DNA of 58,003 nucleotides, counting the filler, from Catajapyx aquilonaris (Eukaryota), in the NCBI GenBank assembly GCA_000934665.2. It is 2 parts of 2 records of this genome, joined end to end, with 100 filler letters (N's around TTAATTAATTAA, not from the genome) between each part and the next. Parts side by side here need not be neighbours in the genome. Positions count along the whole stretch, not along the records: positions 1 to 28,931 come from KZ539231.1; 1 more part is not named here. The stretch is one strand, 5' to 3'. Each line of letters opens with the position of its first letter. The first letter of the stretch is position 1. The notes beneath the pieces were generated by a model. The model had not been told where the DNA came from and ran no database searches. It saw only the letters and a list, made by a program, of their open reading frames with translations. Shown here one piece after another: positions 550 through 25,451 of the stretch. A program made the position numbers and the translations under genes.

Positions 550-1757
550 ATGAAGGTTGAGGTGTACATAATTCTGGCTCTTGTGCCCTGTACCATATAT
601 GTTGAAGGATTTGCAAGAGGTCAGTACTGGTACTTCTCGATCCGGTGTAATATAACTTATGGATCTTGAACTATTTTCAGAGGATATAATTTCAAGATGC
701 ATGGACGCCAAGAGAGAAGATATTGAGCCATGTATAATGGAAATATTCAGTGACTTGCAACCTCAATATGAAGCTGGTGAGTGTGTATCCCCAACAGGTG
801 TCCACATTAATTATAATTCAATACGGTGCATAATATGTACTTAAATAGTATATTTTATCAAGCTTATCGAAAGGTCACAGCCTGATGTGGATGTATATAT
901 CACTGTATTTTGTATTTACCAAATGTTCCAACCCATTTGCACATTTTTTTGAAAACTGAAAAAATACGTTTGCTTTCAGGTATTCCTGAGTTTGGTTTGC
1001 CTCCTATGGCAGCAGTTCCATTCGATAAGTTCACAGTGACTGAATACCAAAACGAAAACAGTTACTTCAACCTAGAGATGCGGGACATTATCGGCGAAGG
1101 TCTCGATGAGAGCCAAATGGCAACACTGCAAGTGGACTATGACAATAAACTTATCCATTCGCAAATCCTACTGCCAGAGACTTTGGTGAAAAGCAAATAC
1201 ACGTTGAATGCAAAGTTGACTCTGATTCCCCTAGAAGGAGAAGGAACCTTGTGGGCCAAACTGAGTAAGTGAATTTTAATTACATCAACACACCTGGGAT
1301 AATAAAATATTTACTAATATATATTATCATCAGTATTTTTTCCTATGTTTTAAGTGCATTTAATTCATTTCAGAGACTGGTCATGCAGTAGTAGAATGCA
1401 CTTTTGATTTGATTGGTGATGATCCTCATTTGAAACTAGAGTGCAAAGTACCTGAACTCCAATTCCAGGACGTGACAATTAGATTGAACAATCTGTTCAA
1501 GGACAACCCGATTCTAAGTATGTTCAGATTAGAATAACCCATGCTATTATGATATTTATGTATTCTTTTCGTTTGCAGAGGAAGCAGCAGAATCGTTTGT
1601 CAACCAGAGTGGTCCAGATTTACTCGCTATAATCATACCAGAGCTTGAAAAGCGATTTGGCGAAGTTATTACCAGCTATGGAAATAATATTTTAGAAACA
1701 CTTTCCTTTACAGAGTTAGCAGGACAAGAGTATCTGAAGAAAGCGTTCAATATATAA
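550..1757 (+). CDS. Takeout/JHBP-family secreted protein, copy 1 (257 aa). Exons 550-619, 681-776, 980-1264, 1374-1517, 1579-1757.
   Basis: All introns are GT-AG and the exons join in frame (774 nt). Signal peptide MKVEVYIILALVPC; N-terminal Cys pair (SRCMDAKREDIEPC); takeout motifs GIPEFGLPP and LNNLFKDNPILKEAAESFVN. Lengths of exons 2-5 are identical to the three paralogues. Confidence 0.92.
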
Positions 1758-4661: not shown

Positions 4662-5875
4662 ATGAAGGTTCAACTGTGTCTGCTAGTCCTTGTGCCGGCC
4701 ATCTTTGCTTCTGTTATACCAAAAGGTCAGTATTTTTCAAATTCTTACTAGAAAAGTCAGCGTATTTTTTTCTACTAATTAAGTAGTCAAATCCTGACCC
4801 AAAATATTTACAAAAATAGTCTTCTAAAAGATTAATTAATTTTCAGCGGACGTGATTTCTCGATGCAAAGATGCAAGTCAGGCAGATATGGGGGCATGCA
4901 TTATGAAGATTTTCAACGATATGATACCGGATTTTGCTGAAGGTAATACCTATAGCATGTAGCATTATAACCAATGCCAATGTGTGGAAAGGTGCTAACT
5001 ACAACTAACAACTACTGTACTTTCAGGTCTCCCTGAGTTTTCCCTGCCATCTATGTCTGAAGTCCCAATAGAAAATTACGGAGTGAGTGACTACCAAAGC
5101 GAGAATAGTTACTTCAACATAGATATGGCGGATATTACATCCAAGGGGATGGAGGAATCAAAGTTGGTCAAGCTCGATATCGATTACGACAACAAGGTTG
5201 CTACCTGGGAAACAAATGTACCGGAGATCTTTGTGCGTGCAAAATACAAGATGACAGCCAAGTTGACTTTCATTCCCATCGAAGGTGAAGGAACCATGTG
5301 GGGAAAGATGGGTAAGTAAAATATGCAAAGCACTGATAAAAAAATTATGACAATATCCACTGCTACTGCAAACTACAATTTGGATCTATGTTATGGCCAA
5401 TGGCTTTATGCTAATTTTCTTTGCACATTTCAGGAAATGTTGCGGTCAAGGGACACCACAAATTTGACTTTGTTGGCGATGATAAGCACTTGATGACCGT
5501 TGGTACAGTGGACGATCTGGACTCCGAAACCTTGACAGTTCGATTCAACAATCTCTTCCCAGGAAACGAAATCTTGAGTAATAAGATAATTAATTCGCAT
5601 AGATTAGATGGGCATCACTCACACAACCTGCAGACCATACCCATTAAATCAAGGTTATTTTCTAAATAATTAAGCCGCTATGTCCTATGTTTTCAGAGGA
5701 AGCTGCCGAAGCGTTCATTAACGGAAACACCAAAGATATTGCCGATCTCATCGAGCCCGAGTTGAATAAGAAATTGAGCATACTCGTCACAAACACTGTC
5801 AACAATATAGGAGCCACTCTTCCACTGAAGGACATTGCAGGAGAACAATACATCCGAAAAGCCTTCAACCTCTAA
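4662..5875 (+). CDS. Takeout/JHBP-family secreted protein, copy 2 (255 aa). Exons 4662-4725, 4847-4942, 5027-5311, 5434-5577, 5697-5875.
   Basis: GT-AG introns, in frame (768 nt). Signal peptide MKVQLCLLVLVPAIFA; Cys pair SRCKDASQADMGAC; motifs GLPEFSLPSM and FNNLFPGNEILKEAAEAFIN. AATAAA at ~5997. Confidence 0.93.
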
Positions 5876-6329
5876 AGTTTCAATTGCAGTAAAATGCAGT
5901 TATGCATTATTATGGAAGACGTAATGTACATTAATTTTGTGATTTTGCATCAACCGTATATGTATGGAAGTGGTGAATATATTAAAGGAATTGGTTAATA
6001 AAAAATACCTCGACCAACCAGAGTTTGATGTAGGCTCTAATGTCATAAATGCTGTTTACCAGCGTTCATTTGTTCCGCGATATAATGTCCGCGATAATGC
6101 GCATGCAACATGAACATTTCATGCATGTCATTATTATATTCTGATTTTTACAACAAAATAATGACAATAATGCTTGACGGAGAAGCATGTAATCACATCC
6201 ACTATATGACAGATATCACTACTTAGATGATTCTTCTCCACGACAATCACTCTCTGCATTTTTGATATGGATGGTCGGAGCTGCTAGGCTGGGCTCTCGT
6301 AGGCCCAATGCAACGGAGAGAGTCTGAAC

Positions 6330-6490
6330 CATTACACTGGACCTACCAGCCCAGTCCAGTTTCCACCTGGCAAGACAGGCTCCCGGCCAGCATCCTCCGC
6401 AGGGGCTTCGATGTGGAAGTTTCCTTATCTCTTCTCTCTTGTGCTCACAGAGCCCAGATAGAACACTCACAGGCACGGAAACATTGGCGT
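6330..6490 (-). pseudogene. Divergent ionotropic receptor (IR) fragment, S1 ligand-binding lobe
   Basis: Minus-strand translation NFHIEAPAEDAGREPVLPGGNWTGLVGPV* matches the iGluR/IR S1 signature NGTWxGLVG. Stops lie on both sides. DNA is similar to 8150-8330 and 9060-9180. Confidence 0.7.
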
Positions 6491-6651
6491 ATTGTGTATT
6501 TTCTTACAATCTGACATCCGTAGTGTGTTGTTTGGATTTCATGCGCATACAATATTCTCCATATTACAAGTATTCCAACATTGTATAGCCATAGGTATTG
6601 CAAAGGTAATTGCCAAATCAATGAGTTACCCCTACGGAAAAGTATTTCATA

Positions 6652-6679
6652 ACCCGAGGAACGCCGGGTATGCTGCTAG
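6652..6679 (+). mobile_element. Helitron 3' terminus
   Basis: GC hairpin acccgaggaacgccgggt followed by CTAG|T, the typical insect Helitron 3' end. The 5' end was not located. Confidence 0.6.
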
Positions 6680-6699
6680 TACACTGATAAACTTACAGT

Positions 6700-7080
6700 A
6701 GCCTACGTACATGTTGCACTGGATGTGAGTGTGCAACACTCTTCCAAGTGTTACAAGTTTGGCGACATGATGCTTGTGACCCAGCTAGCAACTCTTGGAA
6801 GAGTGTTGCAGAATGGAATATTTAGGCAAGGCAAAGCCATAAATAGGTTGACGGTACCCAAATATTCGGTTCTGCAATAAATTGTCGTGAGGAAGAAGCA
6901 CGTCGTGACATCTGGTGCACTGCTCGCTCAGCTCCTATAGTTCAGATTCTCGGCTGGACTCCTGATTGGACTGGATTAATAGGGCCAATTCAGCGATTTC
7001 AGACTCTACGAGACCAGTCCAACCAGGAGTCCAACGATTTCAAACTCGACCTCCTCTGCAACGGTCCGACCAGTGCCTGT
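6700..7080 (-). pseudogene. IR pseudogene fragment (end of S1 joined to S2 across a deletion), interrupted by a hairpin insertion
   Basis: Reads LVGPLQRR..EIVGL.. then DVTTCFFLTT, then YGFALPKYSILQHSSKSC*LGH[insert]IQCNMY. The last part aligns with IGFSLPKYQILFHYWKRCELGHVQSYMY in the 12.4-13.0 kb ORF. Confidence 0.72.
6732..6810 (-). repeat. 79-nt fold-back hairpin (inverted duplication of IR S2 sequence)
   Basis: tgcaacactcttccaag...cttggaagagtgttgca forms 17 perfect pairs, and imperfect pairing continues almost to the centre. Confidence 0.85.
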
Positions 7081-7084
7081 ATAT

Positions 7085-7395
7085 GTTGGACTGGATGTGA
7101 CCCAGCTTTCATCTTTTTTGAAAGAATGAAACAAAATGGCATACTTAGGCAATTAGAGAATACAGCGGTGATCCACAGAGTAGGCCTACTCGGGAATGAT
7201 CTGGACGGGACAGTTTCCATCCAAGTGCATGGACTGAATGGATATGTAATATGTCATGCCTCAGCAGAGGGTACATAGTGCTCCACCCAACTCTGACTTC
7301 TTTCTCAGCAGAATTAGGGGCAGCTTTATGCTGCCTGCTGCTAGGCCTACTTCCGCAGAGATCCCACCAGGCCTCTGTCCAGTTGCCATCTGTCA
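7085..7395 (-). pseudogene. IR pseudogene fragment (S1 GNWT motif plus S2 segment)
   Basis: 7085-7250 aligns at DNA level to 12605-12760 (gtgatccacag...agtttccatccaagt). 7345-7395 reads DGNWT..GLVG with a frameshift. Confidence 0.72.
7258..7346 (-). repeat. Degenerate ~89-nt fold-back hairpin inside an IR fragment
   Basis: gcctcagcagagggtacatagtgctccacccaactctg aligns with the reverse complement of cagaattaggggcagctttatgctgcctgctgctaggc, with many mismatches. Confidence 0.55.
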
Positions 7396-7829
7396 AAATG
7401 TCTATTCATAAGATATTACAGCTCTCTTGAGACACTATAGTGTGCGAGTTATCTACAGTAATAGACTAATGATTAACAATAACCTTCAATAGGAACCCAT
7501 GCAAATTAGAATATCACTTGCATGATAGGCCATCAAAAATAGATATACGAACACTATACACATCGCAACAAAGTCTGAGGATCATAAATTTAACGCAGTT
7601 TACTATGTGAATAAAATTCTATCCGTACCAATAGTTGTGGATAATGTTCAATCAGAAATTAACTGATTTAACAGAATTGGCTGAACTGAACAGCTTCAGT
7701 GGATTCAGAACATCAGAAGTGGAATTGAGTGTGTAAAGTGAAGGGTTTGAATTAATTCAAATTCACAGGAATTACATCAATTTTCACAATTATTCATTTT
7801 CACTGGTAAACATACCGTATACACTATAC

Positions 7830-8395
7830 TGTAGACTGGACATGTGATCCAGTTCTTATCTTTTGAAACAGTGAAACAGAATGCCTCGGCACCACTAAGC
7901 CAGCCGTCACCCAATTCGAGCTTCGGGTCACGGTTGGCTTCGCGGTGCCGAAGAATTCAATTATGCAGTGAACTGTCATGGAGAAGAAGCACGTCGTGAC
8001 ATCTACGATAGCCACTGACGTCACTGGTGCACTGCGCAGCTCCTAGTTCGGATTATCGCATGGACTTTTGATTGGACCGAGCCTATATGTAGGGATTTCA
8101 GACTCTAGAGTCTAGACTACTAGGCCATGCCAGTCTGGTGATTTCCATCGGCATCCTCTGCGTATGTTCCACCAGACCTGTCCAGTTTGTGCCTGCCACA
8201 GCCGGGTCCAGGCTAGCATCCTCCACATGGGCTTCGATACGGGAGTTTCTTTACGTGGGGGACGCATTATCTGACGGCTGTCTCTTGTTCGCACAGAGTC
8301 GATGTAGAACACACGGAAACACTGGATTGTCATTTGTCAGGAAGAAGTCCAGGGATTCGTTGCTTGGACCGACAAAGATCGTGACATTCATATAG
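7830..8395 (-). pseudogene. IR pseudogene fragment (pre-S1, S1, then a short S2 piece)
   Basis: Reads MNVTIFVGPSNESLDFFLTNDNPVFP...RIEAHVEDASLDPAVAGTNWTGLVEHTQR, then DVTTCFF. 7835-7880 matches 12605-12655. In-frame stops are present. Confidence 0.7.
7884..7953 (-). repeat. 70-nt fold-back hairpin
   Basis: 30-nt arms cctcggcaccactaagccagccgtcaccca / cgggtcacggttggcttcgcggtgccgaag have 6 mismatches, 3 of which are G:U on the - strand. Confidence 0.85.
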
Positions 8396-8443
8396 CGACC
8401 TTGTCCTGAAAGGCCGTTATATTAACATAACGATCTCGGTCGG
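8369..8443 (-). repeat. ~75-nt fold-back hairpin
   Basis: 27-nt core arms agatcgtgacattcatatagcgacctt / aaggccgttatattaacataacgatct, with 3 G:U pairs on the - strand. One arm is the IR-like MNVTIF segment. Confidence 0.8.
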
Positions 8444-8939
8444 ATAGTCGATAGAGAATGCCGAAGTTGTAATTTGTCGGATGAGTTAATCTAGGAATCA
8501 CTCCAGGTTGGACAGATTCAGCCCCTAGCTCTCTACACAATCTTGGAATTGCGACGAATAATTTGCTATTACAAGGAGTCTAAAATAATATGTTATTACA
8601 TACAACTTCACTTCAGCTTGAATATTCGGCGACCTCTAAAGTACAGTACAGTACAGTATAGTACAGTACAGTACATAATTATGTCGGTCGGATTAATCTG
8701 GGAAATAATACAGATTAGACTGATTCAGGCCCTCTTTTCCTGATGGTTCTGCTCCACCCTGACACTGCCACTAATAAATGATTATTATGAAGGAGCAAAA
8801 ATTGTTATCGTAAACACAGTACATTTTTGTTATTATTATAATAATTTATTGTAAATTGTAGCGGTACGACTAACAAAATAGCACAATGAGCCTTTTACCT
8901 TCATGGCAGTCAGTCCAAATGGGTTTGATGATAGAGACA

Positions 8940-9245
8940 GCAGCACTAGTTCAGATTCTCGACTGTACTCCAGACTGTACTGGCTTAGTACAGGTCAACG
9001 ATTTCCGGCTCTACAAGGTCAGTCCAGTCTGGAGTCCACCGATTTCAGACACCTTCCTCTGCATAGGTCCCACCAGGCCATCATCCTCCACAGGGGCTTC
9101 GATGTGGAAGTTTCTGTACGTGGGGGATGTTATCTGCCCAGGTAGAACACTCGTACGTACGGAAACACTGGATTGTCATTCGCCAGGAAGAAGTCCAGGA
9201 ATGAGTTGCTTGAGCCTGCAAAGAACGTGATGTTGAGTACAGCAA
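8940..9245 (-). pseudogene. IR pseudogene fragment (pre-S1 and S1)
   Basis: Reads VLNITFFAGSSNSFLDFFLANDNPVFP...RNFHIEAPVEDDGLVGPMQRKVSEIGGLQ, with stops and a frameshift. Paralogous to 8040-8395. Confidence 0.7.
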
Positions 9246-9629
9246 CTGCGCTATTCAAAAGCTTAGGAACTAGACTACTAGAGAGTAATCTTCATTGCCT
9301 AGACAGAAGCACATGCAGGCCTAATGACGGTAATTTGCAAGACCCCTTTTGTGTTGGGTCATTTATGGGGTTTAATTTCAAGTTCCACTCAAATTACATT
9401 GTAATGAAAATTGAAAGTCAAATGCTTGGTTCCATAATTGACAGCTTTTAAATACACAGTTTAGGATTGAGGTTAACTGAATATGAGGTAGGCCTACCCA
9501 AATATCCACGTAAGTAAGGTCAGGAAGTATAGGGCAGAAGTAGTTCCTTGTTTGCTTGAGCCTATACCGAGAACACAATATTAATTAAAATATTTGCCGT
9601 TCAGGCCGTTCGAATAATCTGAGAATAGA

Positions 9630-9707
9630 GGGTATGAATCCGACTTACCTGGAGGACTTGATAAGTTAATTATTATCAAGTCCTCCTGGTCAGCCGGAAT
9701 CAGCCCC
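9630..9707 (-). repeat. 78-nt fold-back hairpin
   Basis: 35-nt arms gggtatgaatccgacttacctggaggacttgataa / ttatcaagtcctcctggtcagccggaatcagcccc; the inner 14 bp are perfect. Confidence 0.85.
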
Positions 9708-9783
9708 ATTTGCTTGCTGTACGAGTGTGTCTTTCTACTATCTTGGGAGTACCACGATTGTTGCAGAAGTGGGAGTTGGTGAT

Positions 9784-9857
9784 GATGCTGATGATGTCTA
9801 ATTCCGCATGGACAAGCGTCTGGGCTTGTCCATGAAAAACCAGACATCATCAGCGTC
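9784..9857 (-). repeat. 74-nt fold-back hairpin
   Basis: 34-nt arms gatgctgatgatgtctaattccgcatggacaagc / gcttgtccatgaaaaaccagacatcatcagcgtc with a 6-nt loop. Four of the 6 mismatches become G:U on the - strand. Confidence 0.88.
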
Positions 9858-10214
9858 TGGAACAGGAACTCGTAGTCCAAGTGAGAATGTCCCTCGATAC
9901 GTCCTCATTGTCCGGGCTGTACTGTAGTCGAGGAATTGGTAGGTTCTTGAGCTCATGCTGATGACTGTCTTGATGAAAATATTGAAGTGACACTCGGAAA
10001 ATAGTATCATAAAGATTAGTTTTAAACGATACAGCGTGTGACATTTGACTTTATTTTTAACGACCCGACAGGTTTATTTACAGCAGGCTGTTATAAAGGT
10101 TACAAGTCATTTTTCGAGAAATACGTGAGGTAAAAAGCCGTATCAAATAACATTCTTTTAGCAAATGTTTATGTGTTATTTGTATAATGGAAATCTTTTG
10201 AAGTACCGTAGTGG

Positions 10215-10580
10215 AGTACTTCATGTCCAGGGTGAAGGGCTGGGCTATGTCTCCCCAGGTGAACAGAAGCCAAGGAGTCCGGTTGGAGAGAGTGATTGTC
10301 ATGGAGATAAAAGCACGTGGTGGCATTAAGTCGTAGATATCATGAGACTACTCTCAGGATATCTACGACTTAATACCACCACGTACACGTATAGGGGCGT
10401 CCTCAGTGATAACTAGACGTCATAACATTCTGCATATACAGTGCATAGAGTGGCTTTCAGTTCATATTCTCGGCTGGACTCCAGACTGGACCGGCCTAGG
10501 GGGGCAATTCAGCGATCTCAGACCCTACAAGGCCAGTCCAACCTGGAGTCCACCGATTCCATACTTCCTCCTATGCACAG
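10215..10580 (-). pseudogene. IR pseudogene fragment (end of S1 to pre-M1)
   Basis: Reads YGIGGLQVGL..RSLNCPPRPVQ, then RTPWLLFTWGDIAQPFTLDM, resembling the IR pre-M1 motif P..W....PF...VW. DNA matches 6940-7040 and 8950-9050. Confidence 0.7.
10315..10384 (-). repeat. 70-nt near-perfect fold-back hairpin
   Basis: acgtggtggcattaagtcgtagatatcatgaga-ctac-tctcaggatatctacgacttaataccaccacgt: 31 of 33 positions pair, and one mismatch is G:U on the - strand. Confidence 0.92.
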
Positions 10581-11844
10581 TCCAGCTTTGTACCCCGATA
10601 AACATTACCGTAATTGGTTACCTATCAGGCTACGATATGTGAAACTGTTTTGATGATTAAAATTGTTTTGATGTTAAATACAACAGTTGTTTTCGAAAAA
10701 ATTTCGTGTTAAATTACATGGCGCGTGTGGCATGAAAAATGGCTTGATAGTGAGGTTGGCAAATAAATATATTTCGATTGTCCTGATTATTTTGAAAATC
10801 TCAAGTAAACATTGCTGGTTTCATTTACCTACCTGGATTATTTACCTGGATTTAGGAAATTAATTTCGTATCAGTCCAACATCTTATACTTATACACAAT
10901 ATTACTTCTGCATATCCAAAATAGATGTCTCCGAGCTCTCAGGCCAATGTTGGGTTGCCTCCCGTCTGACGAAACCGACTGGAGCTCTGCAAAGTCTGCA
11001 GTAGTTTGCAGGACATTGGGCACCTGCAGCTTCGCAGAAGGCATATGTCTGTTGCATAATTTTGGTTGCGCTTGGTCTGCCCATGTTTAGGCGCGAGGGA
11101 GTGGTCATATGTCCAGAAAAAGAGGGAATTTGGTTTGCGTCACTTTGCGTAACCGCATTTTATTCGCTTGCTTTACAACATGTAACCTACACATCATGAC
11201 TGCAATATCTAATGCGGAGTAATATTTTCCACAAACACTACAGAGTACACGAGTGGGTCAAATCACTCAAATGACATAATTATAATACGAGGGGGACAGG
11301 GGCAACCTGTACTCCGCTGGCTACCCCTCTATGGGATTATTTTGCCGTGAAGTAAATGATGAATTATGGTGTGTGGGATATAATTATATAAGACACTGAA
11401 TATCTAAGCACATCAATCTGCTATCACGACTATGGAAATATTGAATAACTGCCAGTTTGTTAATATGCCGCACAATTCAATTTCATACATGTAGCCTAGA
11501 AATTAAAATAAATGAGAGCCTATATTTATAGTGCCTATTTAAGAGCCTATTTGACTCTTTTCAGGGCCTAAATGCCTACCTATTTGAGGGTTTCTTCAAA
11601 GAGTTCTGCTATAATATATATACCTAGAGGAAGTACTCCCTATCCTTTCCCATTAGCCAGGCTCAGGGAGTCGCCATGGTTACTTGGGTCATATTGTTGT
11701 TCTGACAGTTGTGTAGCAACTGGGACAACAACCAATAATGACAACTGGGACAAAAATTAGTCCAATAATGTCAGGCGTCCGCCATCTTTACTTGGGTCAT
11801 ATTGTTAGCCTGCTTCGCATTTCACCCCGAGTGCTCTCTCTATA

Positions 11845-12019
11845 CTAGGGGGGAAGATAACTCATGCGTTTGGCGAGGTGGCTTGTAACCTTGGGAACCA
11901 AATAATTAACCCCATCCTCCCTATACCGGTCGACCAAAACTCAGCAGGGGACGTGAGCAATTATGGGTTGTCAAGGTCACAAGCCACCTCCCAAAACGCA
12001 TGAGTTATCTTGCCCCTAG
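11845..12019. mobile_element. 175-bp MITE with ~50-bp TIRs
   Basis: TIRs ctagggggg-aagataactcatgcgtttggcgaggtggcttgtaaccttg / caaggtcacaagccacctcccaaaacgcatgagttatcttgcccctag, flanked by TATA on both sides (TA or TATA TSD). Confidence 0.85.
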
Positions 12020-12144
12020 TATAGGTATTTCATTCATTACAGCAGAACTCTTTGGGGTTTTTAGAGCCTAAAAATCCATGCCTTAGTGAGATGATCCATT
12101 TAATTAATTCAATTTGACATAAATACATCGATACTGTTCCCTGA

Positions 12145-12255
12145 TGTTCACTATAATACGATATCACTATAATCATCATATATACTGTAATCACACACTG
12201 TGTATCACTATATATCACTATAATACTACAGTAAATCACTACAATACTACAATAT
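12145..12255. repeat. Degenerate low-complexity tandem repeat (tatcactataat-like)
   Basis: Recurring cactataat / tatcacta units. Confidence 0.55.
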
Positions 12256-12405
12256 TCATTTCCATTACTTGGATGAAGGTAACGTGCGACTACGAATCTT
12301 TAAGTGAAATTATTGACCGATTGGGCCAAAGTGCTGTAATCTACCAGGGTTTACGAATAGGCTCTCGTGCCACTTTCTCAACCTGTCATGTACGTAATAC
12401 CAGGA

Positions 12406-13330
12406 CTACCTTTTGTTCATTCGGAATTTGGTGTTTTCGCCAATGAAAGCTAAGATTATGACAACGTGAATGACAAAAGGAGCCTTCAACTGACTGATTC
12501 TGCGAGCCATGGAAAGTGCATACAAGAAATTCTTCCCCTTGGCCCCCTTCAAGGCAGTCAGACCCATCAGGTAGCCAAAATCCCTTGTAAACTTATCATA
12601 CATATAGGACTGAACATGACCAAGCTCGCATCTTTTCCAATAGTGAAACAAAATTTGATACTTAGGTAGAGAGAATCCAATGGTGATCCACAGGGACGAA
12701 TCAGGAATGGTCTGGACCGGAAAGTTTCCATCCAAGTCCATAAACTGCAAGGACATGTCATTCAGGATCTGATCGAAGACGATGCAGCTGAAATCCTTAT
12801 AGATGGCCCTTACCAAGCAATTGGTCATGTCCTGCCCCTTCTGCATCCAGGCTCGCATCTTCCTGATGTAGTACACTTCCTCCGAAAATTCTGTCAGCAT
12901 ATTAACAGAATCTGTGACATAGTCCATGGTGTCCCATGAGCAGTTGGGCCAGTCTACCATCTCCCTCAGGCTTTGAGGCAGAGGGTGTAGTGCTGGAGAC
13001 ACCATGAATCCGAAGTACATGGCATCGTATCAGGTCACAAAGGAGCCAGTAGAAGTAGCTTGAGTGAGTCGACTATCGGGGTTAGGCTTGGGTTTTCTTC
13101 AATCAGGGCAGAAAAGGAGAACTAGAGGGAATATAAGGCGAGATGGGCCTGTGGTGTGGACTCTTCAGGAAAAGGGTTTCGCTCCATGGCATACACCTTC
13201 AAGTTGTAGTAAAAACAGACGCCAACTGCCCGTGCACATATTATGTGCACGGGCAGCTCACGAGATATTATACGGGCAGCTCACGAGATATGCACACTGC
13301 TAGAGCCAAACCTGAAGAGTGGACCTTTGG
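12406..13330 (-). pseudogene. Divergent ionotropic receptor, least decayed copy (M1, pore, M2, S2, M3), intronless
   Basis: Reads TLQVWL / LAVCIS (start of M1), AVGVCFYYNLKVY, then SL*FSFSALIEENPSLTPIVDSLKLLLL (pore/M2). The supplied ORF 12406-13020 continues with SPALHPLPQSLREMVD (start of S2), IGFSLPKY and LKAPFVIHVVIILAFIGE (last TM). Stops and frameshifts lie upstream of 13020. Confidence 0.8.
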
Positions 13331-13673
13331 GTTGTCGCCGTTACGGAAACCACGGTGCCCTCGTTAACTTGTAAACCTTGAGCTATTTGCATGTACTCCA
13401 TTCAGGTTCACATGAGAAGAAAAGGTAATTGAAAAAAGGGGTCCTTTTTTTGGAATCGGAATGGACACGTCAGCAGAACCGAATTGATCGATGGCAGGAA
13501 AATATAACAATTGTTGCAAGGGTATTGGGTCACTACCAGTTGGGTCCTAAAAATAGGCCTACCTGTTATGAATTGAGTAACATGGCGCAGACGCATTCGT
13601 TAACTAGTGTAATCAGATGTACTGTACACTTGGTTGGATATGCAATAATTATTTATTCGGCCGTAGATGATTT

Positions 13674-14906
13674 GAAGACCTCGGGAGAACAACGATCAAG
13701 GTCCACCTCAGGTGAAACTGAGATATTCGCATTAGGCCCATAAGGCTCCATTGTAAATCCCACTTTCGGAGCCTTCCATATAGTGACCTATGATCATTAC
13801 TCCATAACCACTACCAAACCATCACATTATACGAGTAGTGGCGGATCAAAAGCGGCCATCTCCACGAAGTCCAGAAAATGAACTGCGTGCGGGGCATTGT
13901 ACCTGAAGGCAATCCCTTCCATAAGGTTTGCATGTGGCAGGCCTAAGTCGGCCAACTCCCGAGATATAAGGGACAGAAAGGAGACTGGCAAAGCACATTC
14001 GGCCAACTCCGCGAACTGTGGCAAACCAAATCCGGCCAAATCCGTCCATCTCTGCTGGCGGTGCAAAACCGGCCAACTCCCTAGCGTTTGTGATGGGAGG
14101 CCGCCTGTGGCACCGGCTCAAATCGCGCGCCTAAAAACCGTCGCATTGGCAACGGTGAAGTAGTGCCTTGACATAAGGTAATGTCGCAACTACACAGGAC
14201 GTGTCGGTGTAGCAAACTAACACCACTTCCTCCACCCAGTGTGCCTGAAAATGTCTGGCGAGCAAGACATTCGGTGGGATGAAACCACCTGGGCTTGAGA
14301 TTGGTGTGCCAATATCAAAAAAGAAATTGGACGATGTGCGTTCTCTCATCGAGGTGCACTTTGGTAGTGACTGGGAGACGGTGGGGGGTACTGAATATTA
14401 CAAACATGTCCTTAGTGGTCCAACTGGTGACGAAGAGCAAGACAGGTCTAACAACTGTATGTGCAGAGAAGAAACCAGTACCTTTGTAGGGCCTTAGACT
14501 CTTCACAACATCAATTTGTATTCCTCTCTTTGGACCCAATTATGAATAAAAATAATACTACATGACTGTGGCAGTGCAAAATTAATCCAACTCCACCTGT
14601 GGCATGTCAGACCTGGCCAACTCCAACCTTTGTCATGGAATATGTTGGTAACCCTTTCCCCCACATTTGCGACACAAGTATGTCCATCAAGAACTCCTGA
14701 AGTCCTATCTTTTAGCAGTCACAGCGTGCTTCTATCTGCTATGGTTGTTGATTTCTACGTTTTTTAACTCTACTGAAAATTTCGATAAGCAGGAGATGGC
14801 CGCTTTTGATCCGCCACTACTCATACGCTAGTGACTTTACCTTCTGAGATATGTAACTCATTTTTGACAAAAAGTGGACCTTGATCGTTTTTCTCCCGAG
14901 GTCTTC
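13674..14906. mobile_element. Outer TIR element (Sola-like MITE) hosting a nested Sola element
   Basis: ~33-bp TIR gaagacctcgggagaacaacgatcaaggtccac / gtggaccttgatcgtttttctcccgaggtcttc. Flanks attt and atat are AWWT-like but imperfect. Confidence 0.72.
13833..14822 (+). mobile_element. Sola-superfamily DNA transposon, internally deleted, with a transposase C-terminal remnant at ~14270-14497
   Basis: 31-bp perfect TIR gagtagtggcggatcaaaagcggccatctcc, GAG terminus and a perfect 4-bp TSD ATAC. The remnant PISKKKLDDVRSL...YYKHVL resembles Sola1 C-termini. Confidence 0.8.
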
Positions 14907-15102
14907 ATATTTCTTTACTATTATTTAACATTATAAATGTGTCCAGCCTTCAAGCTTGTTTGAGTATAAAACACCCCCCTGCTATCAATAGAAGAGAGTG
15001 CTGACCCTGATCGTGTCCTATTTCACAAACAACTTATGTTGATTACATCCGCCGGGACACTTTCTTCGCTCGGGTTATTGAAAGACTGACATCAGGACTT
15101 TG

Positions 15103-15137
15103 TATAAAGCAGGCGATTGATTCGAGCGCAATCAGTA
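15103..15137 (+). promoter_or_regulatory. Candidate TATA + initiator core promoter
   Basis: TATAAA at 15103 and the arthropod Inr TCAGT with its A at 15134, 31 nt apart. Confidence 0.4.
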
Positions 15138-16963
15138 TGTCTCGTTACCTCCATGTTACCCGGTAGACTAGTTCCCAGAGGTACTACTCTTTCTTGAGAT
15201 ATAGTGACGTAGTATCTTGCCTTGACTACGGGTCAGTTGAATGACAACAGAATGGGGCTATAATGAAGGGCGACTTAAAGGCAGAACGATATAGTGTAAT
15301 TTGTGAGTCTATGGCGCTAATAGAATATTGGTTTTCTACAGAATCGGAGAGAAAATCATGGAAATGAATGCAATAATGATGTACGGTGTTAATTTTCTAC
15401 AAGCACATTTAATACAAGGCATCATTGTGAGTGTTTAATATAGACTATCGGGTGACAGACAATTGATTAAAGAAAATACTTCCTTGCACAGTGAGGAACA
15501 TCTAATTTACTTGTATTACCTGCAGCTGTAGCATTATATAGTTCTGATACAAGTCCTTAATTACTGTACAAGTCGTTTCATTTCATATAATGTTGCCCAT
15601 TGTGACCTGAGCAGACCTGAGTACTACTGTAAATGTGAACATATTGTAATTATGTAGGCTACTTATTTCCCAGCTTTAGTCACTCAATGATATTTTCTAC
15701 CGAGTCCAGCACCAATCATTTCGGTCATTTCAGTGCAAATCGATGCTGATCGGAAAGTTGATGATTCATTTATTTCGGTGTTCTGACCAGTTGTAGGAAG
15801 GTCCTGAAAGGTATGGCGGCCATGTCTGTGGGGGTGTCGTTCGCCTTTTGTTTCTGTTGTTACAAGGAGAAGAAGAATTACAGCAGTAAAAATGGTGTGT
15901 ATAGTGTTTGGCAATTAAGATGTTGAACAACTCTGGCGTTAAGAATAATTTATCTAAGTTTGGTTACTTTGATGCAACTGGTTACAAAGTGCTTGCAAAT
16001 TGCAAGATCTGCTTCATGATTTAATATGCCACAAAACATTGCTTTCGTAAACTTGAGTGAGAAGTTTGTTGGATCATGCAGAATGGCCAAACTTCCATTC
16101 ATCTTCCTGGCGATGACATAATGCAGTCACTACCACCTATAGTGACTGTAATTTATATTCTCAAGGGCCTTGGCACATTTCATGTTGTACTGAGTAGGCC
16201 TAGGGTAGACTATTAGAAATTCGCCCCTGCTGATGATACAGATGGGCGTATAGATTGCTCATCATCCGATAATGATATTACATAATGAAAATAATGTACC
16301 ACTGCACAACATTTTTCATTTTCACTGTACTCCCGATTATCTGGGTGCGGATTATCCGTGCATCACCAAAAAATAAAATTTTCGCATAAGTAAAACAATC
16401 TACATACAAATGAAAGGCTGGAGTTGAATTATTGTCGTCGTCGTATTTTCTCGCCCAAACATTGTCTCTGCTCTAACATTATTTTAATCTTACAATAAAT
16501 GAACATATTCCTTTTCAAATTCAATCTCGTTTAAGAAAGACCATGGTCTCCACATGTTCACCAAAGAAAGACTTGAGTTGATGTACAAATCCAAATCCAA
16601 CTACTACTCCTTCATTATTCCAATGTCCCTGGCTACGCTCGTGGCTGGAATTGGAGAGGAGAAACTTCCTCGCCAAGTAGAAGAAGTCTTGACAAAAGCT
16701 GGAATGATGTTTCAGTCTCAAAATGACTTTCTAGATTGCTATGGAGACGAAGAGGTGACAGGGAAATCTGGAACTGATATTGAGGAAGGGAAATGCACCT
16801 GGCTTCTGGTCACTGCCTTGAAGCTTGCCAATGAGGAGCAGCATAAGGTTCTCGAGGTCAGTTTCACACTGCAACTACAAACCAGGATGTAAATTATGAC
16901 TTTCAGAGATGCCTGCGAGAGAGAGAATACGCATATTAATCATCACCCTCCTCTTTTAGGAAT

Positions 16964-18046
16964 CCCTTACCGAAATTTAACCCAGCCGCGAGCTTGCCGC
17001 TAGCTCGCCAGAAGCTGGCCAGCTCGCCTCAGGATAGCCGCCACGTCGCGGGACCTCGCGGCTTTCAAATATTCTCCTGACCTCGTCATGACGAGCTAGC
17101 CGCTACTTGGCGCCGAGCAAGTCATTCCGCGAGGTCTCTTTTTCTGACCTCGTCATGACGAGCTAGCCGCTACTTGGCGCCGAGCAAGTCATTCCGCGAG
17201 GTCAAGTCTCTTTTTCTGACCTCGTCATGACGAGCTAGCCGCTACTTGGCGCCGAGCAAGTCATTCCGCGAGGTCGAGTCTCTTTTTCTGACCTCGTCAT
17301 GACGAGCTAGCTGCTACTTGGCGACGAGTTTATTCGAATGTGGGGCAGCTTCCCGCGTGGAGATGGCGCTGTCGTCGGTGTATCGTTGCACCGATTTATC
17401 CCACAACAATGCGAATTAATTTTGGCCATTACTCATGTGCAAAGGTGGCAGGATACTCCACTGCATGCGGCTCAGTTACACCCGAGGTACTTCATTGTGA
17501 CATTAATTTGCTAGAGTCATTAAATGGCAATGCTGTTTAGTGCGAGCAGGACAATCCGCGGTATGAAAGAGCCATACAAGCCGGGCACCTCCGCACTTCC
17601 ACGAAAACCAAGCAACCAACCATGCGAAGAAGAGAATAATAAAAAGCGAAAAAGCCACTTCCCCATCCCCAGTGTGACTTGCTCGGCGCCAAGTAGCGGC
17701 AAGCTCGTCATGACGAGGTCCCCTTACCGAAATTAATTTATATATAATATCAATATAGTGGCGAGGTGGTCGCGTGGTGGGTACCTCGCGACTACCTCGG
17801 CTGGCAAGGTGGTCGCGAGGTACCCACCACGCGACTACCTCGGCTGGCAAGGTGGGTACCTCGCGACTACCTCGGCTGGCGAGGTGGCCACCTCGCCACC
17901 GCCACCTTGCGACCACCTCGCCGACCGCCACCTCGCCGCGACTTCGCCCGCGACATAGCGAAATGAAACAACCGCTAGTATGCGGTTGGGTGGCCATAAG
18001 CTCGTCTGACGACCTCGCCGCGAGGTAGAGAAAATTTCGGTAAGGG
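16964..18046. mobile_element. Non-autonomous CCC-terminated DNA transposon (CMC/EnSpm-like) inserted in an FPPS exon
   Basis: TIR cccttaccgaaattt / aaatttcggtaaggg with a 2-bp TSD AT. It carries subterminal tandem and inverted repeats and a second left end at 17721. Confidence 0.85.
17074..17330. repeat. Four tandem ~70-bp units inside the transposon, with an inverted copy at 17676-17720
   Basis: Unit ctgacctcgtcatgacgagctagccgctacttggcgccgagcaagtcattccgcgaggtc, containing the palindrome ctcgtcatgacgag. Confidence 0.9.
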
Positions 18047-18689
18047 ATGCTATGGAAGCAAAGATCCAGTTCATGTGAGGAGAGTAAAGAGCCTCTACAA
18101 CGAATTGAATCTTCCTCGAATCTACCTTAATTATGCAGAAGAACTGCTGCGTTCCTTCTGTTTTTGATATCTAGACTACACTCTTCCTTTCAAGAAATTT
18201 CAAACTTCGTGCAACCTAATTATAGTTGATATACATATCAAAAAACGGATCATGTTAAGAAAATTATCGAGGAGAAATACCCAGAATGAATAGGCAATAT
18301 TATACTGGAAAAGGGGATGAGGGCTGTCCTAACCTTTTCAAGTCCTACAGCCCGTTTCCCGCTATTTATTCAAATGAACAAATCTCCTCAACATACATAA
18401 AGCCATAGGTCATAAAACAAATCAACATTAATAAACAATTAACAACAGTAGGCTCACCAGGCCGTCTTCTTCTGTACGTCTTCTTCTGTTCAGGAGGCAT
18501 CATGCTCTTCATACTGTTGTTGTCTCCGACCCCTACCAGCATTCATCTGCGATAATAAGTGGTCCGCCACCAGGCAGAATTATTGGTTGAAGGTAGGGAG
18601 CAGCTTATATTATACTGGCAATATTATACTGTAATGTCATTACGAATACGCGAACAAACACCTCAAGGTAAAATGTGTCAGAGGGCACT

Positions 18690-18979
18690 AACGAAAGGCT
18701 GCCGTTTAATTATTGTCGTCGTCGTCCTTTCTTGCCCAAACATTGTTTGCTGTAATAAACTACATATTATTTTTAAAACCAACAAAACAACGAGGAACAT
18801 TGTAAACGTAATAGTGACAGTTATTTCTAAGTTTTGAACACCTTTCGTTGCTGGATATAAAGGTAGACTTCCTTATAGAGTTCTGTGCTTCAAAATTTCC
18901 AAACTTCTCTAACTCGAATCTTCTATAACTCAAAGTTTTTTCCGGTCACATGGAGATACCACTTATAGAAGTTTTACTG
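18690..18979. mobile_element. pogo/Tigger-like MITE remnant, with a related fragment at ~16325-16480
   Basis: Shared aattattgtcgtcgtcgt..gcccaaacattgt at 16427 and 18708. Right-end-like acttatagaagttttactg. Confidence 0.45.
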
Positions 18980-20621
18980 GAGTACGTCAAGTGTGACACT
19001 GCCTATTCCTTCTCGACGTACTCACGTGATCACCAGCACTATTTCCTCCTGTAGAATATTGGTTTCTACAAATTATGCAGCAAGCATGTTTTTAAATAAG
19101 GCAATTATGGGGTCACTTTCACATGTCACGTGAATAGATACTGGTTCAGAAACCTGAACTAGTCATAACAAGTCAGAGTAGTTCGAGGTCATTCATGACG
19201 GTAATCACGACAATCACTGTCATCGAGATGCTGCTGTATAATTATTACCGTCAAGATTTGTGCCACTCTATGTATTACACCTGTCTAGTTACACACTGTG
19301 ACTTACGCTCACTATCGCAGCAGTCCATTTTGACAATCCTGTATTGTCAAATTGATGAATAATACAGCAATATTACGATTGATGCGACGCAATCATTTGT
19401 TATATAATTTGGAAACGGTAAGTGCAAAATAAATAATATCAACCTTGCAGTTAGTGTACATGCGTCATGTAATTTGCATTCGCAATATCACTTACGTCAA
19501 TTAATTGTTAGAAGATTGAGAAAGTGATAAAACTTAAAAAGAGGCCGAGAAATCTCATCTTGGAAATATATAATTATATTTTTTGCTATGACTAGAGCCC
19601 TATAGCTATTTCCGCATATCTAATCCAGTTGTAAAATAATCGACTAACTAATACAGTGTTCGCAGACTGTTTCATAATGATTCCAAATAATTCTAGGGTG
19701 GCATTCAGTGCAAAAAATGATGTTCATGTAAGGCTGTAGCAGGATGTCTTTTGGCACATGTACCAATTTACTTGGGTATACGCAGGGCCTGATTTAGACC
19801 TTGGGGGGCCCGGGGCGATCTTGGTTAGCCCCCCCCCCCNNNNNNNNNNCCCCCCCCCCCCCCGAAATTAAAATATACCGCAGTAAGGATAATATATTCA
19901 CGAAATACATATCACAGTCAGTTTAATGCATTTAAGCCTGGAGCTGGATGTTCGTCAGTTTCGTCACAAGTGGTTAATTATTAATATTTAATAATGATAT
20001 AAAGTATTTTTAATTCTTTAATTTTTTGCCAAATTGTGGCAAGTTGGTGCCTAGTCAAATAATATGGTGGGTGGAGGTCATTATAGTCTCAACAACCTTC
20101 ATAAGGTCGGTCCAATGATGCTAATTAGGCCTATACGTGATCTTTTCAAGTTACAAAAAAAATCATCCTCTGAACCATCTATAATACCACGTGTACTAGG
20201 CTATAAGTAGTTCCTACACGCCTCAACTTTAACTGTTCTCTAGTATGAAGATGTTCAATATTATTCAATGCAGGCACGTACAGAAACCAGATATTTCCAA
20301 GTGAGCCAAATGTCCACCTTGAGCCCCCTTTTTTACACGTCCATTTGGTATAAATTCCACTCATGCCTCGACTCCGCTAACCGATGCGTGATTGGCCACC
20401 TCACATGAGTTTGTATCATTGAGTCAGCACAGGATTTAGTGAGATTTTGAGGTAGAGTCGCTAGACGCAAATGGAACCCGACATGGCTATTACTCTGCTT
20501 GTCATTCATGTAATTAAAGTTCCAGTTTTTGGAAAAATGTTTTGTAAATATATAATAAATTATATAATGAAACGAGAAGAGCGTCAGAAACTCACTCACC
20601 TTGAAATATATAGGATACGAG

Positions 20622-20660
20622 TATATAAGACGACGTTAGAGTCGCATTTTTTCTCAGAAT
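20622..20660 (+). promoter_or_regulatory. TATA box and Inr-like site of takeout copy 3 (same in copy 4 at ~25946-25984)
   Basis: tatataag lies ~30 nt upstream of tcagaat, and the ATG follows ~10 nt later. Copy 2 has a similar arrangement. Confidence 0.55.
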
Positions 20661-20664
20661 CACC

Positions 20665-22406
20665 ATGAAATTCCTGATGTGGTTGCTGGTTGCTCTGGTG
20701 CCCTCCATCTTTGCCGGGGTCGTCCCAGAAGGTCTGCATTTTTACGATATTTATTAGAAACACCCACAGTTTGGGAAAGTACTGCCACTATTGACAACTA
20801 CAACTATAGAAGCTACTCACTTTTGAATATTAAGATTCCCTTTTGTAGAGAACTACTCTGCAATGTATGACATTGTGTTCTTCTAACGGTTGTTCCAGTC
20901 TTACACCTCCAGTCATATGCGTGACACAAAATTGTTGCAGCCTTGCACACTTGTCAAGGTTTTTTTTTTGCCATATGACATAAGTACCCTTGCGTCATAT
21001 GGGCAAGAGTGTCCTCTCGATCTGAAGTAATTTAATTTTTGTTGGGGCCGGCAGTCATGATATCCTGGTTTGTCACTGTCAAGCTGCAGCAGCCACTGTG
21101 ATCAACACTAATTTCACCTGAATCCAATTAGAGTCGCAGTTTTTCTGCAAGTTTTTCCCGTGCCAGTGTTTATTTTAAGTAATGTGGGATATTCCCATTA
21201 ATATTAATATAAAAATAAGTACAATTATCAGCCTTGTTGACTGCATCATAAAGGCAATGTTTCCTCCACATAATTTCAGATGATGTAATTTCTACCTGCA
21301 AGGATGCTAGTCAAGCAGAGATGGGACCATGCCTGGTCGATCTCATCAACAAGATGAGCCCGGACTTTGAAAAGGGTATGAATTTTATGACTCATTATTT
21401 TTCTCGAATAATAATTATATTGCTTTTTATAGCATAATGTTTAATCGTTGACACATTATGAATATTCCATTGCATTCACTTGTCAATCAATACATTGTCA
21501 CTTTATATACCTACATATTGTGTCCGTCATCTTTGATTCATGTCTAAAAGCTTTACTGTATTTTCAGGTCTGCCTGAGTTTGGTTTACCATCCTTGAAGG
21601 AGGTAGAACTGGACAGGTTCGGCATGACCGAGAGCCAAAACGAGAACACTTACTTTAAAATCGAGTTGTGGAACATGATATTTAAGGGTTTTGAGGAAGC
21701 GAAAATGACCAAGATTGATGTCGATTACGACAACAAGATTGCTCGCTGGGAGGCTGTCGTCCCGGAGGTCTTTTTGCGTGCAAAATACAAGATTGACGCC
21801 CAGCTGTCCTTCATTCCCATCCAAGGGGATGGAACCATGTGGGCAAAGCTATGTAAGTTTTCAAAAATCAGTGACACACAGTGTCAGAGTTCAGATTTAT
21901 TATAAAGAATTTATGCAATCTGAACAAGCTTCCATTGGGTCTACGAACGTTATAATTAAAACACGAATAATTGTTGTGATGCAATAATTTCAGCAAATGG
22001 TATTGCTAAAGGATACCACACATTCAACATTGTTGGTGAAGATAATCACTTGGAGGTGGTGGGGACAATGGAGGACCTGGACTACGAAACCGCCACAGCC
22101 AGATTCAATAATCTTTTCCCAGGAAATGAAATCTTGAGTGAGTTTTACTATTGAATCATATAGTGCTGACTGACATTTTCCACTTAAACGTCCTACATGT
22201 AACACTTTTCTTGTTCATTCATTGCAGAGGAAGCGGCCGAGTCCTTCATTAACCAAAGTGCCGGAGACATGTTCGAACTGATCGAACCTGAGTTGAATAA
22301 AAAACTTAGCAAAGTCGTCACCGACTATGCAAACAACATTGGAAAAACTCTTCCCATTGAAAAGTTGGCAGGAGAAAAATATCTTAGAGAAGTGTTCAAT
22401 CTCTAG
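20665..22406 (+). CDS. Takeout/JHBP-family secreted protein, copy 3 (256 aa). Exons 20665-20731, 21280-21375, 21568-21852, 21994-22137, 22228-22406.
   Basis: GT-AG introns, in frame (771 nt). Signal peptide MKFLMWLLVALVPSIFA; Cys pair; motifs GLPEFGLPSL and FNNLFPGNEILKEAAESFIN. AATAAA at ~22505. Confidence 0.93.
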
Positions 22407-25400: not shown

Positions 25401-25451
25401 ACGTGATCTTTTCAAGTTACAAAAAACACAGATCATCTTGGAGCGATCATA

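What the first reader, a model, noticed from the sequence alone, without database searches (positions are those of the whole stretch)
6732..10384. Cluster of pre-miRNA-sized hairpins within an ionotropic-receptor pseudogene array: candidate hpRNA/miRNA locus against IR paralogues
Seen in sequence: seven fold-backs of ~60-90 nt within 3.7 kb (6732-6810, 7258-7346, 7884-7953, 8369-8443, 9630-9707, 9784-9857, 10315-10384), with weaker ones at ~7399-7466 and 10986-11038. They are unrelated to each other, lack TSDs and so are not a MITE family. In several (6732, 7884, 8369, 10315) one arm is wholly or partly collinear with IR-like sequence and the other is an inverted copy. Across the six best hairpins my hand count of transition-type mismatches gives about 14 that form G:U on the - strand (the IR sense strand) against 4 on the + strand. 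Established: inverted duplication of target-gene sequence is how young plant miRNAs and Drosophila hpRNAs arise. Inference: a decayed IR array may have been turned into a polycistronic small-RNA source whose antisense arms could silence intact IR relatives.
Basis: partly seen in the sequence, partly recalled or inferred. Interest (0 to 1): 0.85.

Follow-up and report, generated by a model that had tools for sequence, protein, structure and literature searches.

The report
Hairpin cluster from local inverted duplications
A 4-kb stretch of decayed receptor-like gene copies in an arthropod-type genome carries about ten unrelated 70-90-base fold-backs, each made by copying neighbouring sequence backwards. 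It looks like a mutational hot spot, and whether any fold-back makes small RNAs could not be tested.

Summary
The hairpins are real. Six of the seven listed fold far better than shuffles (z -6 to -15), 7258-7346 is moderate, and the two "weaker" ones are chance-level. They are clustered: 6 of 9 hairpins of this class in the 58-kb window lie within 3,653 nt (scan statistic p = 3.7e-4). Alignment with paralogous copies in the same array shows they are copy-specific. For 6732-6810 the left arm and loop are absent from 3 of 3 paralogues, while the right arm is ancestral. Hairpins 7879-7958, 8369-8443 and 10315-10384 show the same pattern less cleanly. This is the signature of template-switch or fold-back inverted duplication, a known source of de novo hairpins.

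The functional reading is not supported. No RNA run is available. The arms have no complementary sequence elsewhere in the window, and the one intact-looking paralogue matches an arm at only 24/36. Mismatches that break pairing on both strands are not depleted (17/35 versus 42/97 in a neutral control). "IR-like" rests only on a language-model lead, with no Pfam hit.

Two things remain unexplained: the clustering and the narrow arm length (33-38 nt in 8 of 8).

The parts
6219..10650 (-). Array of decayed, rearranged receptor-like gene fragments (pseudogene array)
   Evidence: Paralogous blocks 6852-6971~7943-8077; 6938-7073~8947-9076~10459-10580; 6345-6427~8171-8253~9073-9114; 8208-8384~9073-9230; 7080-7250~12599-12761. 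Short - strand peptide matches to ORF 12406-13029 fall in two different frames of copy C (E 0.64 and 4e-5) and in copy A (E 4e-6), so the reading frames are broken.
12406..13029 (-). Intact-looking 207-aa paralogous ORF; carries no hairpin
   Evidence: Longest ORF of the region. 75% DNA identity to 7080-7250. Atlas lead to arthropod clusters, some with Lig_chan. No Pfam, HMMER or PDB hit. No hairpin peak between 12016 and 13221.
6283..6357 (.).
   Evidence: MFE -45.2 (z -6.2) on the - strand versus -29.6 (z -2.8) on the + strand.
6732..6810 (.). Hairpin H1: 36-nt arms, 7-nt loop, 81% complementary
   Evidence: Left arm 6732-6767 is gapped in 3 of 3 paralogues. Right arm is 24-27/36 identical to them. 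The - strand ORF 6785-6934 ends inside it.
6953..7035 (.). Older hairpin inside repeated block P4 (copy 1); also at 8962-9040 and 10473-10554
   Evidence: z -7.2 / -10.4. Shared by three paralogous copies. 4 of 28 consensus pairs show a two-sided change in a 4-sequence alignment.
7258..7346 (.). Hairpin H2, gapped, moderate
   Evidence: z -3.3 / -5.3. Origin undetermined: copy C and ORF copy D are not alignable beyond 7250.
7879..7958 (.). Hairpin H3: 34-nt arms, 12-nt loop, 82% complementary
   Evidence: The loop is absent from 3 of 3 paralogues. Right arm is 19/34 identical to copy A without gaps. Left arm is 14/34 with 11 gaps. Paralogue A has a weak 21-nt inverted repeat at the same place, 6806-6826 / 6857-6877.
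8369..8443 (.). Hairpin H4: 34-nt arms, 7-nt loop, 76% complementary
   Evidence: Left arm is 23/34 identical to the paralogous unit at 9215-9246; right arm is 14/34.
8962..9040 (.). P4 hairpin, copy 3
   Evidence: z -5.8 / -2.5.
9109..9170 (.). Small hairpin specific to unit 3; folds on the + strand only
   Evidence: z -5.75 (+) versus -1.4 (-). Unit 3 differs from units 1 and 2 by a block of changes at its 3' arm (alignment).
9630..9707 (.). Hairpin H5: 35-nt arms, 8-nt loop, 83% complementary
   Evidence: No paralogue available to polarise it.
9784..9857 (.). Hairpin H6: 34-nt arms, 6-nt loop, 82% complementary
   Evidence: Four of its five transition-type mismatches lie in one 6-nt block.
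10315..10384 (.). Hairpin H7: 33-nt arms, 4-nt loop, 94% complementary (youngest)
   Evidence: The outer left arm aligns with copies A and B (19/33 to B); the right arm is 12/33. Copy E carries about 100 nt of extra sequence here.
10473..10554 (.). P4 hairpin, copy 4
   Evidence: z -4.9 / -6.4.

Best explanation
The region is a decayed, rearranged tandem array of receptor-like gene fragments. It has repeatedly suffered short inverted duplications. In each event a stretch of about 35-45 nt was copied in reverse-complement orientation next to itself, by replication template switching or fold-back priming of a nascent or broken strand. That created a near-perfect 70-90-nt palindrome in one step, which has since decayed to 76-94% complementarity.

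Shown here: the hairpins exist, they are clustered, they are specific to single paralogous copies, and one arm is the ancestral sequence.

Inferred: the molecular mechanism (template switch or fold-back); that the cluster reflects a local hot spot in a rearrangement-prone array, free of coding constraint; and that the hairpins are by-products with no established small-RNA role.
For: - Hairpins are real and absent from composition-matched resamplings.
- H1's left arm and loop are missing from 3 of 3 paralogues while its right arm is 24-27/36 identical to them. H3, H4 and H7 show the same asymmetry.
- In H1 the host motif next to the insertion (CTGGATGTGA, 6718-6727) recurs in diverged form in the loop and arm junction. 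A template-switch return upstream of the departure point predicts this (read).
- The paralogue of H3 carries a weak pre-existing inverted repeat at the same site (pair I22), the classic substrate for quasi-palindrome extension.
- Complementarity ranges from 76% to 94%, so the events happened at different times.
- The array is mosaic, with blocks in different orders in different units.
- The intact-looking copy 12406-13029 carries no hairpin.
- The mismatch spectrum is neutral-like: pairing-breaking mismatches are 17/35 versus 42/97 in polarised paralogue substitutions.
- The hairpins are not an assembly error. Three contig sets from short-read runs carry 6636-10600 with 0 differences. These come from one sample that may be the source of the assembly.
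- Template switching is documented as a one-step source of hairpins and of de novo miRNA precursors (PMC10710096, abstract and Results part 1). Fold-back of the nascent strand is documented as a source of palindrome elongation (PMC5677150, passages).
Against: - A uniform mutational process does not predict 6 of 9 events in 6% of the window (p = 3.7e-4). The 'hot spot' is a post hoc assumption, and only 58 kb of background could be examined.
- All 8 ungapped hairpins have arms of 33-38 nt. That is not an obvious expectation of template switching, and it matches the 35-bp pri-miRNA stem optimum quoted in PMC10710096.
- All 7 listed hairpins fold better on the - strand. The 14:4 G:U bias (p = 0.031) is not explained by strand-asymmetric mutation, since the control gave 27 versus 28 (Fisher p = 0.042 on the 18:5 alignment-based count).
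- Three of the seven hairpins (H2, H5, H6) have no paralogue that could polarise them.
Confidence: 0.6

Rival explanations
1. Young small-RNA cluster. The array is transcribed on the - strand, possibly as read-through downstream of the receptor-like ORF at 12406-13029. Some hairpins are then processed by Drosha/Dicer or Dicer-2 into miRNA- or siRNA-like RNAs antisense to receptor paralogues.
For: - Several unrelated hairpins within 4 kb, the geometry of a polycistronic cluster.
- Stems of 33-38 bp, near the 35-bp optimum quoted in PMC10710096.
- 7 of 7 hairpins more stable on the - strand.
- G:U count 14:4, p = 0.031, with no matching mutational asymmetry (27 versus 28).
- The arms derive from gene-like sequence.
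- The array lies downstream of ORF 12406-13029 on the same strand.
Against: - No complementary target in the window; the intact paralogue matches an arm at only 24/36.
- Loops are 4-8 nt in 5 of 6 hairpins, against >=10 nt for pri-miRNAs.
- No Rfam family reaches its gathering score; the best sub-threshold hit is 25.7 bits against 70.
- Pairing-breaking mismatches are not depleted.
- The G:U bias weakens to p = 0.076 on MFE pairs, is 14:14 in the other regional hairpins, and 4 of the 14 sit in one block.
- In primates more than 6,000 template-switch hairpins yielded at least 18 miRNA genes (PMC10710096 abstract), so the prior per hairpin is low.
Confidence: 0.2
2. The hairpins have a DNA-level role, or are kept by a DNA-level process. 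Examples are cruciform or protein-binding sites, or arms repeatedly re-homogenised by template switching, without any RNA product.
For: - The P4 hairpin is kept in three paralogous copies, with 4 of 28 pairs changed on both sides.
- Template switching between imperfect arms can homogenise and expand them (PMC13100816, abstract seen in the search listing only).
- What departs from the neutral spectrum is a shortage of + strand G:T mismatches, not a shortage of transversion-type mismatches.
Against: - No shared motif among the hairpins.
- Four sequences give little power for covariation.
- The mechanism is speculative and not testable here.
Confidence: 0.1
3. The hairpins are copies of small fold-back mobile elements (MITEs).
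For: Two longer MITE-like fold-backs do occur in the window, at 11849-12016 and 28186-28362.
Against: - The hairpins share no sequence with each other or with anything else in the window.
- One arm is host sequence that aligns with the paralogues.
- At >=90% likeness, no extra contigs pile up on them, unlike the true high-copy repeat at 6486-6681.
Confidence: 0.03
4. Assembly or amplification artefact (chimeric inverted joins).
For: Inverted chimeras are a known artefact of some library methods (recalled, not from a call).
Against: - The arms have diverged to 76-94%, whereas artefacts would be perfect copies.
- Contigs built from three runs carry the region with 0 differences. These runs are from one sample that may be the source.
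Confidence: 0.02

Closest known systems
Template-switch-mutation (TSM) hairpins and TSM-born miRNA precursors (Monttinen, Frilander, Loytynoja 2023, PMC10710096; related PMC8794818 and PMC5453318 seen in search listings only)
   Same: A stretch is copied as the reverse complement of adjacent sequence in one step. This creates a near-perfect stem where the ancestral (here paralogous) sequence had none or only a weak one. Stem size is in the pre-miRNA range.
   Different: Here the inference uses paralogues, not orthologues with ancestral reconstruction. Six to ten events are packed into 4 kb. Arm length is unusually uniform (33-38 nt). Expression is unknown.
Quasi-palindrome correction and palindrome elongation by nascent-strand fold-back (rad27-delta yeast, PMC5677150, passages read)
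   Same: A pre-existing weak inverted repeat (paralogue of H3) is extended into a long one. Host sequence is duplicated at the loop of H1.
   Different: Those are laboratory events in a repair mutant. Here they are fixed, aged events in an animal germ line, and no mutant background is implied.
Drosophila hpRNA loci (PMC10317233, passages read; PMC10292708, listing only)
   Same: Inverted repeats born from gene sequence, sometimes in tandem clusters. One example is 13 local inverted repeats in the hp-tHMG cluster.
   Different: hpRNA arm homology is about 200 bp with near-perfect complementarity to an identifiable target, and the loci are defined by Dcr-2-dependent siRNAs. Here the arms are 33-38 nt, no target was found in the window, and there are no RNA data.
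MITEs / fold-back elements
   Same: A short palindromic structure.
   Different: These hairpins are single-copy, share no sequence with each other, and have one arm made of host sequence.

Membership tests
Animal miRNA gene / cluster | Stem-loop with a stem of about 35 bp | tested here: met
   Arms are 33-36 nt in the six ungapped hairpins of the region.
Animal miRNA gene / cluster | Unstructured apical loop of 10 nt or more (as quoted in PMC10710096) | tested here: not met
   Loops are 7, 12, 7, 8, 6 and 4 nt, so 1 of 6 reaches 10 nt.
Animal miRNA gene / cluster | Discrete ~22-nt reads with a star strand and 2-nt overhangs | not testable with these tools
   No RNA run was listed for this DNA.
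Animal miRNA gene / cluster | Match to a described miRNA family | tested here: not met
   Rfam: 0 matches at gathering score in the window. At E <= 1 there are only sub-threshold hits, 22-26 bits against cut-offs of 60-100.
hpRNA (endo-siRNA hairpin locus) | Long inverted-repeat arms (about 200 bp of target homology in PMC10317233) | tested here: not met
   Arms are 33-38 nt.
hpRNA (endo-siRNA hairpin locus) | Extensive antisense complementarity to a target gene | tested here: inconclusive
   None in the 58-kb window; the intact paralogue matches at 24/36. The rest of the genome is not held.
hpRNA (endo-siRNA hairpin locus) | Dicer-2-dependent 21-nt siRNAs; primary transcript rises in dcr-2 mutants | not testable with these tools
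   No RNA data.
Template-switch / fold-back inverted duplication | The new segment is the reverse complement of adjacent sequence | tested here: met
   76-94% complementarity over 33-36 nt, with 0 such hairpins in 20 resamplings.
Template-switch / fold-back inverted duplication | Segment absent from the ancestral state and explained by one event | tested here: met
   H1: absent from 3 of 3 paralogues. H3, H4 and H7: one arm collinear and the other not. Not testable for H2, H5 and H6. Paralogues stand in for a true outgroup.
MITE | Many related copies with terminal inverted repeats and target-site duplications | tested here: not met
   No related copies in the window. No extra contigs at >=90% likeness. 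One arm is host sequence.
Ionotropic receptor (iGluR/IR, Pfam PF00060 Lig_chan) | Significant match to the ligand-gated channel domain | tested here: not met
   No Pfam hit for ORF 12406-13029 or for 10 array ORFs at E <= 1. None in 149 ORFs at E <= 0.01. The only support is the Atlas feature lead: 13 of 30 hits in a set with PF00060 on 29% of members. The array ORF 10078-10347 gave no usable Atlas hit.

The most novel reading that the evidence does not exclude
The hairpins form a discrete size class: arms of 33-38 nt in 8 of 8, with none at 22-32 nt. They are concentrated on one decaying receptor-like array and all fold better on its sense strand. This could mean the array is being converted, hairpin by hairpin, into a polycistronic small-RNA locus. 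On that view template-switch events are retained only when they fit the Microprocessor/Dicer size window, which would make this a snapshot of the birth of a miRNA/hpRNA cluster from its own target family. Alternatively, the uniform arm length could reveal a molecular ruler in the generating mechanism, for example fold-back copying that runs to the 5' end of a short nascent lagging-strand primer.
Probability: 0.15. Interest if true: 0.75.

Novelty: new member of a known kind. Interest (0 to 1): 0.4.

Why it matters
If these hairpins are only mutational scars, the locus is still a compact natural example of one-step hairpin creation by inverted duplication. The 'before' state is preserved in neighbouring paralogues, and the locus hints at a local hot spot and a preferred event size. 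If some hairpins are expressed, it would show in an arthropod how a dying gene array can supply the raw hairpins of a new small-RNA cluster aimed at its own family. That process has so far been inferred mainly from primate miRNAs and Drosophila hpRNAs.

Tried and rejected
- Whole-genome background: no genome is held for this window, so density could be compared only within the 58 kb.
- Expression: no RNA holder was listed. Only DNA runs of one sample and a small 2022 run with next to no coverage were found.
- Identity of the gene family: Pfam gave nothing. The word-based homologue search among longer proteins gave 0. HMMER against 1.84 billion representatives gave 0. PDB phmmer at E <= 10 gave 0. 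The AlphaFold single-sequence model was unusable (mean pLDDT 34.9), so no fold search was run. The second Atlas query (10078-10347, - strand) gave no usable hit.
- Polarising the remaining hairpins: for H2, copy C and copy D are not alignable beyond 7250. For H5 and H6, ORF 9581-9904(-) has no similarity to ORF 12406-13029 (E = 33) and no DNA paralogue.
- First stem scanner: the version with a tight X-drop missed known hairpins and was replaced.
- First G:U tally: the gapped-alignment tally (5:18:24) included some loop-side columns. The ungapped recount (4:14:17) is the one relied on.
- Hairpin 17762-17842 lies in a tandem-repeat block and is probably of a different nature. It was nevertheless kept in the count of 9, which is conservative for the clustering test.
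- MITE and assembly-artefact readings were rejected (see rivals).

Full report
WHAT THE WINDOW IS. The window looks like arthropod nuclear DNA. Four + strand exons match the haemolymph juvenile-hormone-binding-protein family (886-1272, 4999-5875, 21537-21905, 26853-27221), and one matches polyprenyl synthetase (16503-16892). No whole genome is held for it.

The finding lies in a stretch, about 6219-10650, made of repeated blocks in varying order. One block (7080-7250) is 75% identical to part of a 207-codon open frame at 12406-13029 on the - strand. Peptide-level matches to that frame occur in two different frames of copy C (E 0.64 and 4e-5) and in copy A (E 4e-6). The array is therefore a set of broken copies, sense on the - strand.

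Whether the family is 'ionotropic receptor' is not established.
- Pfam finds nothing.
- Two large homology searches and a PDB search find nothing.
- A single-sequence structure model was unusable.
- The only support is an ESM-Atlas feature lead: score 0.96 to arthropod clusters, with 13 of 30 hits in a set where 29% of members carry Lig_chan.
- From memory, not from a call, the ORF also has the look of an iGluR S2-M4 exon.

THE OBSERVATION.
- All seven listed fold-backs are present. Six are far more stable than dinucleotide shuffles (z -6.3 to -14.9), 7258-7346 is moderate (-3.3 / -5.3), and the two 'weaker' ones are at chance level.
- An ungapped stem scan finds 8 hairpins in the window and none in 20 composition-matched resamplings.
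- Counting 6732-6810 as well, 6 of 9 lie within 3,653 nt. Nine uniformly placed events do this with p = 3.7e-4.
- The hairpins share no sequence with each other or with the rest of the window.
- Contigs built from three short-read runs carry 6636-10600 unbroken with 0 differences. These runs come from one sample, possibly the source of the assembly. Together with the divergence between arms, this excludes an assembly artefact.
- The same laying shows that 6486-6681 is a very high-copy repeat, whereas the hairpins are not.

ORIGIN. The paralogous copies act as a record of the state before each event.
- H1 (6732-6810). In the four-way alignment A1 (quantified), the left arm is gapped in 3 of 3 paralogues. 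The right arm is 24-27/36 identical to them. So about 51 nt, consisting of an inverted copy of the neighbouring sequence plus a loop, was inserted in copy A. The host motif that precedes the insertion recurs, diverged, at the loop and arm junction. A template switch that returns upstream of its departure point predicts this.
- H3 (7879-7958). The loop is absent from 3 of 3 paralogues. The right arm aligns with copy A without gaps (19/34). The left arm does not (14/34 with 11 gaps). Copy A has a weak 21-nt inverted repeat at the same place (pair I22), a quasi-palindrome that was extended in copy B.
- H4. The left arm is 23/34 identical to the paralogous unit; the right arm is 14/34.
- H7. The outer left arm aligns with copies A and B, and copy E carries about 100 nt of extra sequence.
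- H2, H5 and H6 have no usable paralogue.
- Complementarity ranges from 76% to 94%, so the events are of different ages.
- H1, H3 and H7 arose independently in the same homologous ~200-nt segment of three different copies.

This is the known signature of template-switch or fold-back inverted duplication. That process is documented as a one-step source of hairpins and of new miRNA precursors in primates (PMC10710096, abstract and first part of Results read). It is also documented as palindrome elongation by nascent-strand fold-back in yeast (PMC5677150, passages).

FUNCTION. Nothing available shows a small-RNA role.
- No RNA run is listed.
- Rfam has no match at gathering score and only generic sub-threshold hairpin hits.
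- No arm has a complementary partner in the window, and the intact-looking paralogue is too diverged.

The G:U argument needs care.

A control argues against a simple mutational asymmetry. Singleton transitions, polarised in three- and four-copy alignments of the same array, split 27 to 28.

Several things weaken the bias as evidence of RNA-level selection:
- Four of the 14 lie in one 6-nt block of H6 and may be a single event.
- Counted on MFE pairs the ratio is 18:8 (p = 0.076), and the other five hairpins of the region give 14:14.
- Mismatches that break pairing on both strands are not depleted: 17/35 against 42/97 in the control (p = 0.69).
- Selection on an RNA stem should remove those mismatches first. 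What departs from neutrality is a shortage of + strand G:T mismatches.

All seven listed hairpins do fold better on the - strand, but 8962-9040 and 9109-9170 fold better on the + strand.

WHAT REMAINS ODD.
- The clustering is real within this window, and 'hot spot' is a label, not an explanation.
- Arm length is strikingly uniform: 33-38 nt in 8 of 8, with none between 22 and 32 nt, although perfect 18-nt arms would have been detected.
- That size equals the ~35-bp stem preferred by the Microprocessor, as quoted in PMC10710096. However, five of six loops are shorter than the >=10 nt quoted there.
- Either a ruler in the generating mechanism or size-selective retention could produce this pattern. 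Neither can be tested here.

VERDICT. The claim of a polycistronic small-RNA locus that silences IR relatives is untested, and the indirect tests available lean against it. It is best filed as a new, unusually dense example of template-switch-type hairpin birth, with a modest chance (about 0.15-0.2) that some hairpins are expressed small-RNA precursors.

Noticed in passing
window 6486-6681: Very high-copy interspersed repeat. Summed contig depth is about 10,000-29,000, against 25-34 for the flanking single-copy DNA. Many short contigs end at its borders.
   Followed up: partly
window 11849-12016 and 28186-28362: Two long fold-backs of MITE-like build, with 51-nt arms / 66-nt spacer and 41-nt outer plus 30-nt inner arms; z -11 to -19. 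The inverted repeat of the first extends into its flanks. Both have more - strand than + strand G:U pairs (8:4 and 4:0).
   Followed up: partly
window 25455-25533 and 50939-51028: Two further hairpins of the same size class outside the cluster (35- and 38-nt arms, 9- and 14-nt loops, 91% and 84% complementary). No paralogue is available to test their origin.
   Followed up: partly
window 17077-17328 and 17759-17948: Tandem repeats (72 nt x 3.6; 43, 32 and 26-nt periods) whose units are themselves palindromic. The hairpin at 17762-17842 belongs to this block.
   Followed up: no
window 886-1272, 4999-5875, 21537-21905, 26853-27221 (+ strand): Tandem family of JHBP/takeout-like gene exons (Pfam PF06585, E 1e-14 to 1e-17) surrounding the receptor-like array. 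There is also a polyprenyl synthetase exon at 16503-16892.
   Followed up: no
window 6847-7278, 8874-9230, 10346-10642 (+ strand): Unusually long + strand open frames (143, 118 and 98 codons) run through the three copies of block P4, antisense to the presumed gene. They have no Pfam hit and are probably chance.
   Followed up: no
window 28932-29031: Assembly gap of 99 N flanked by TTAATTAA repeats. It produces spurious 'palindromes' in repeat searches.
   Followed up: no
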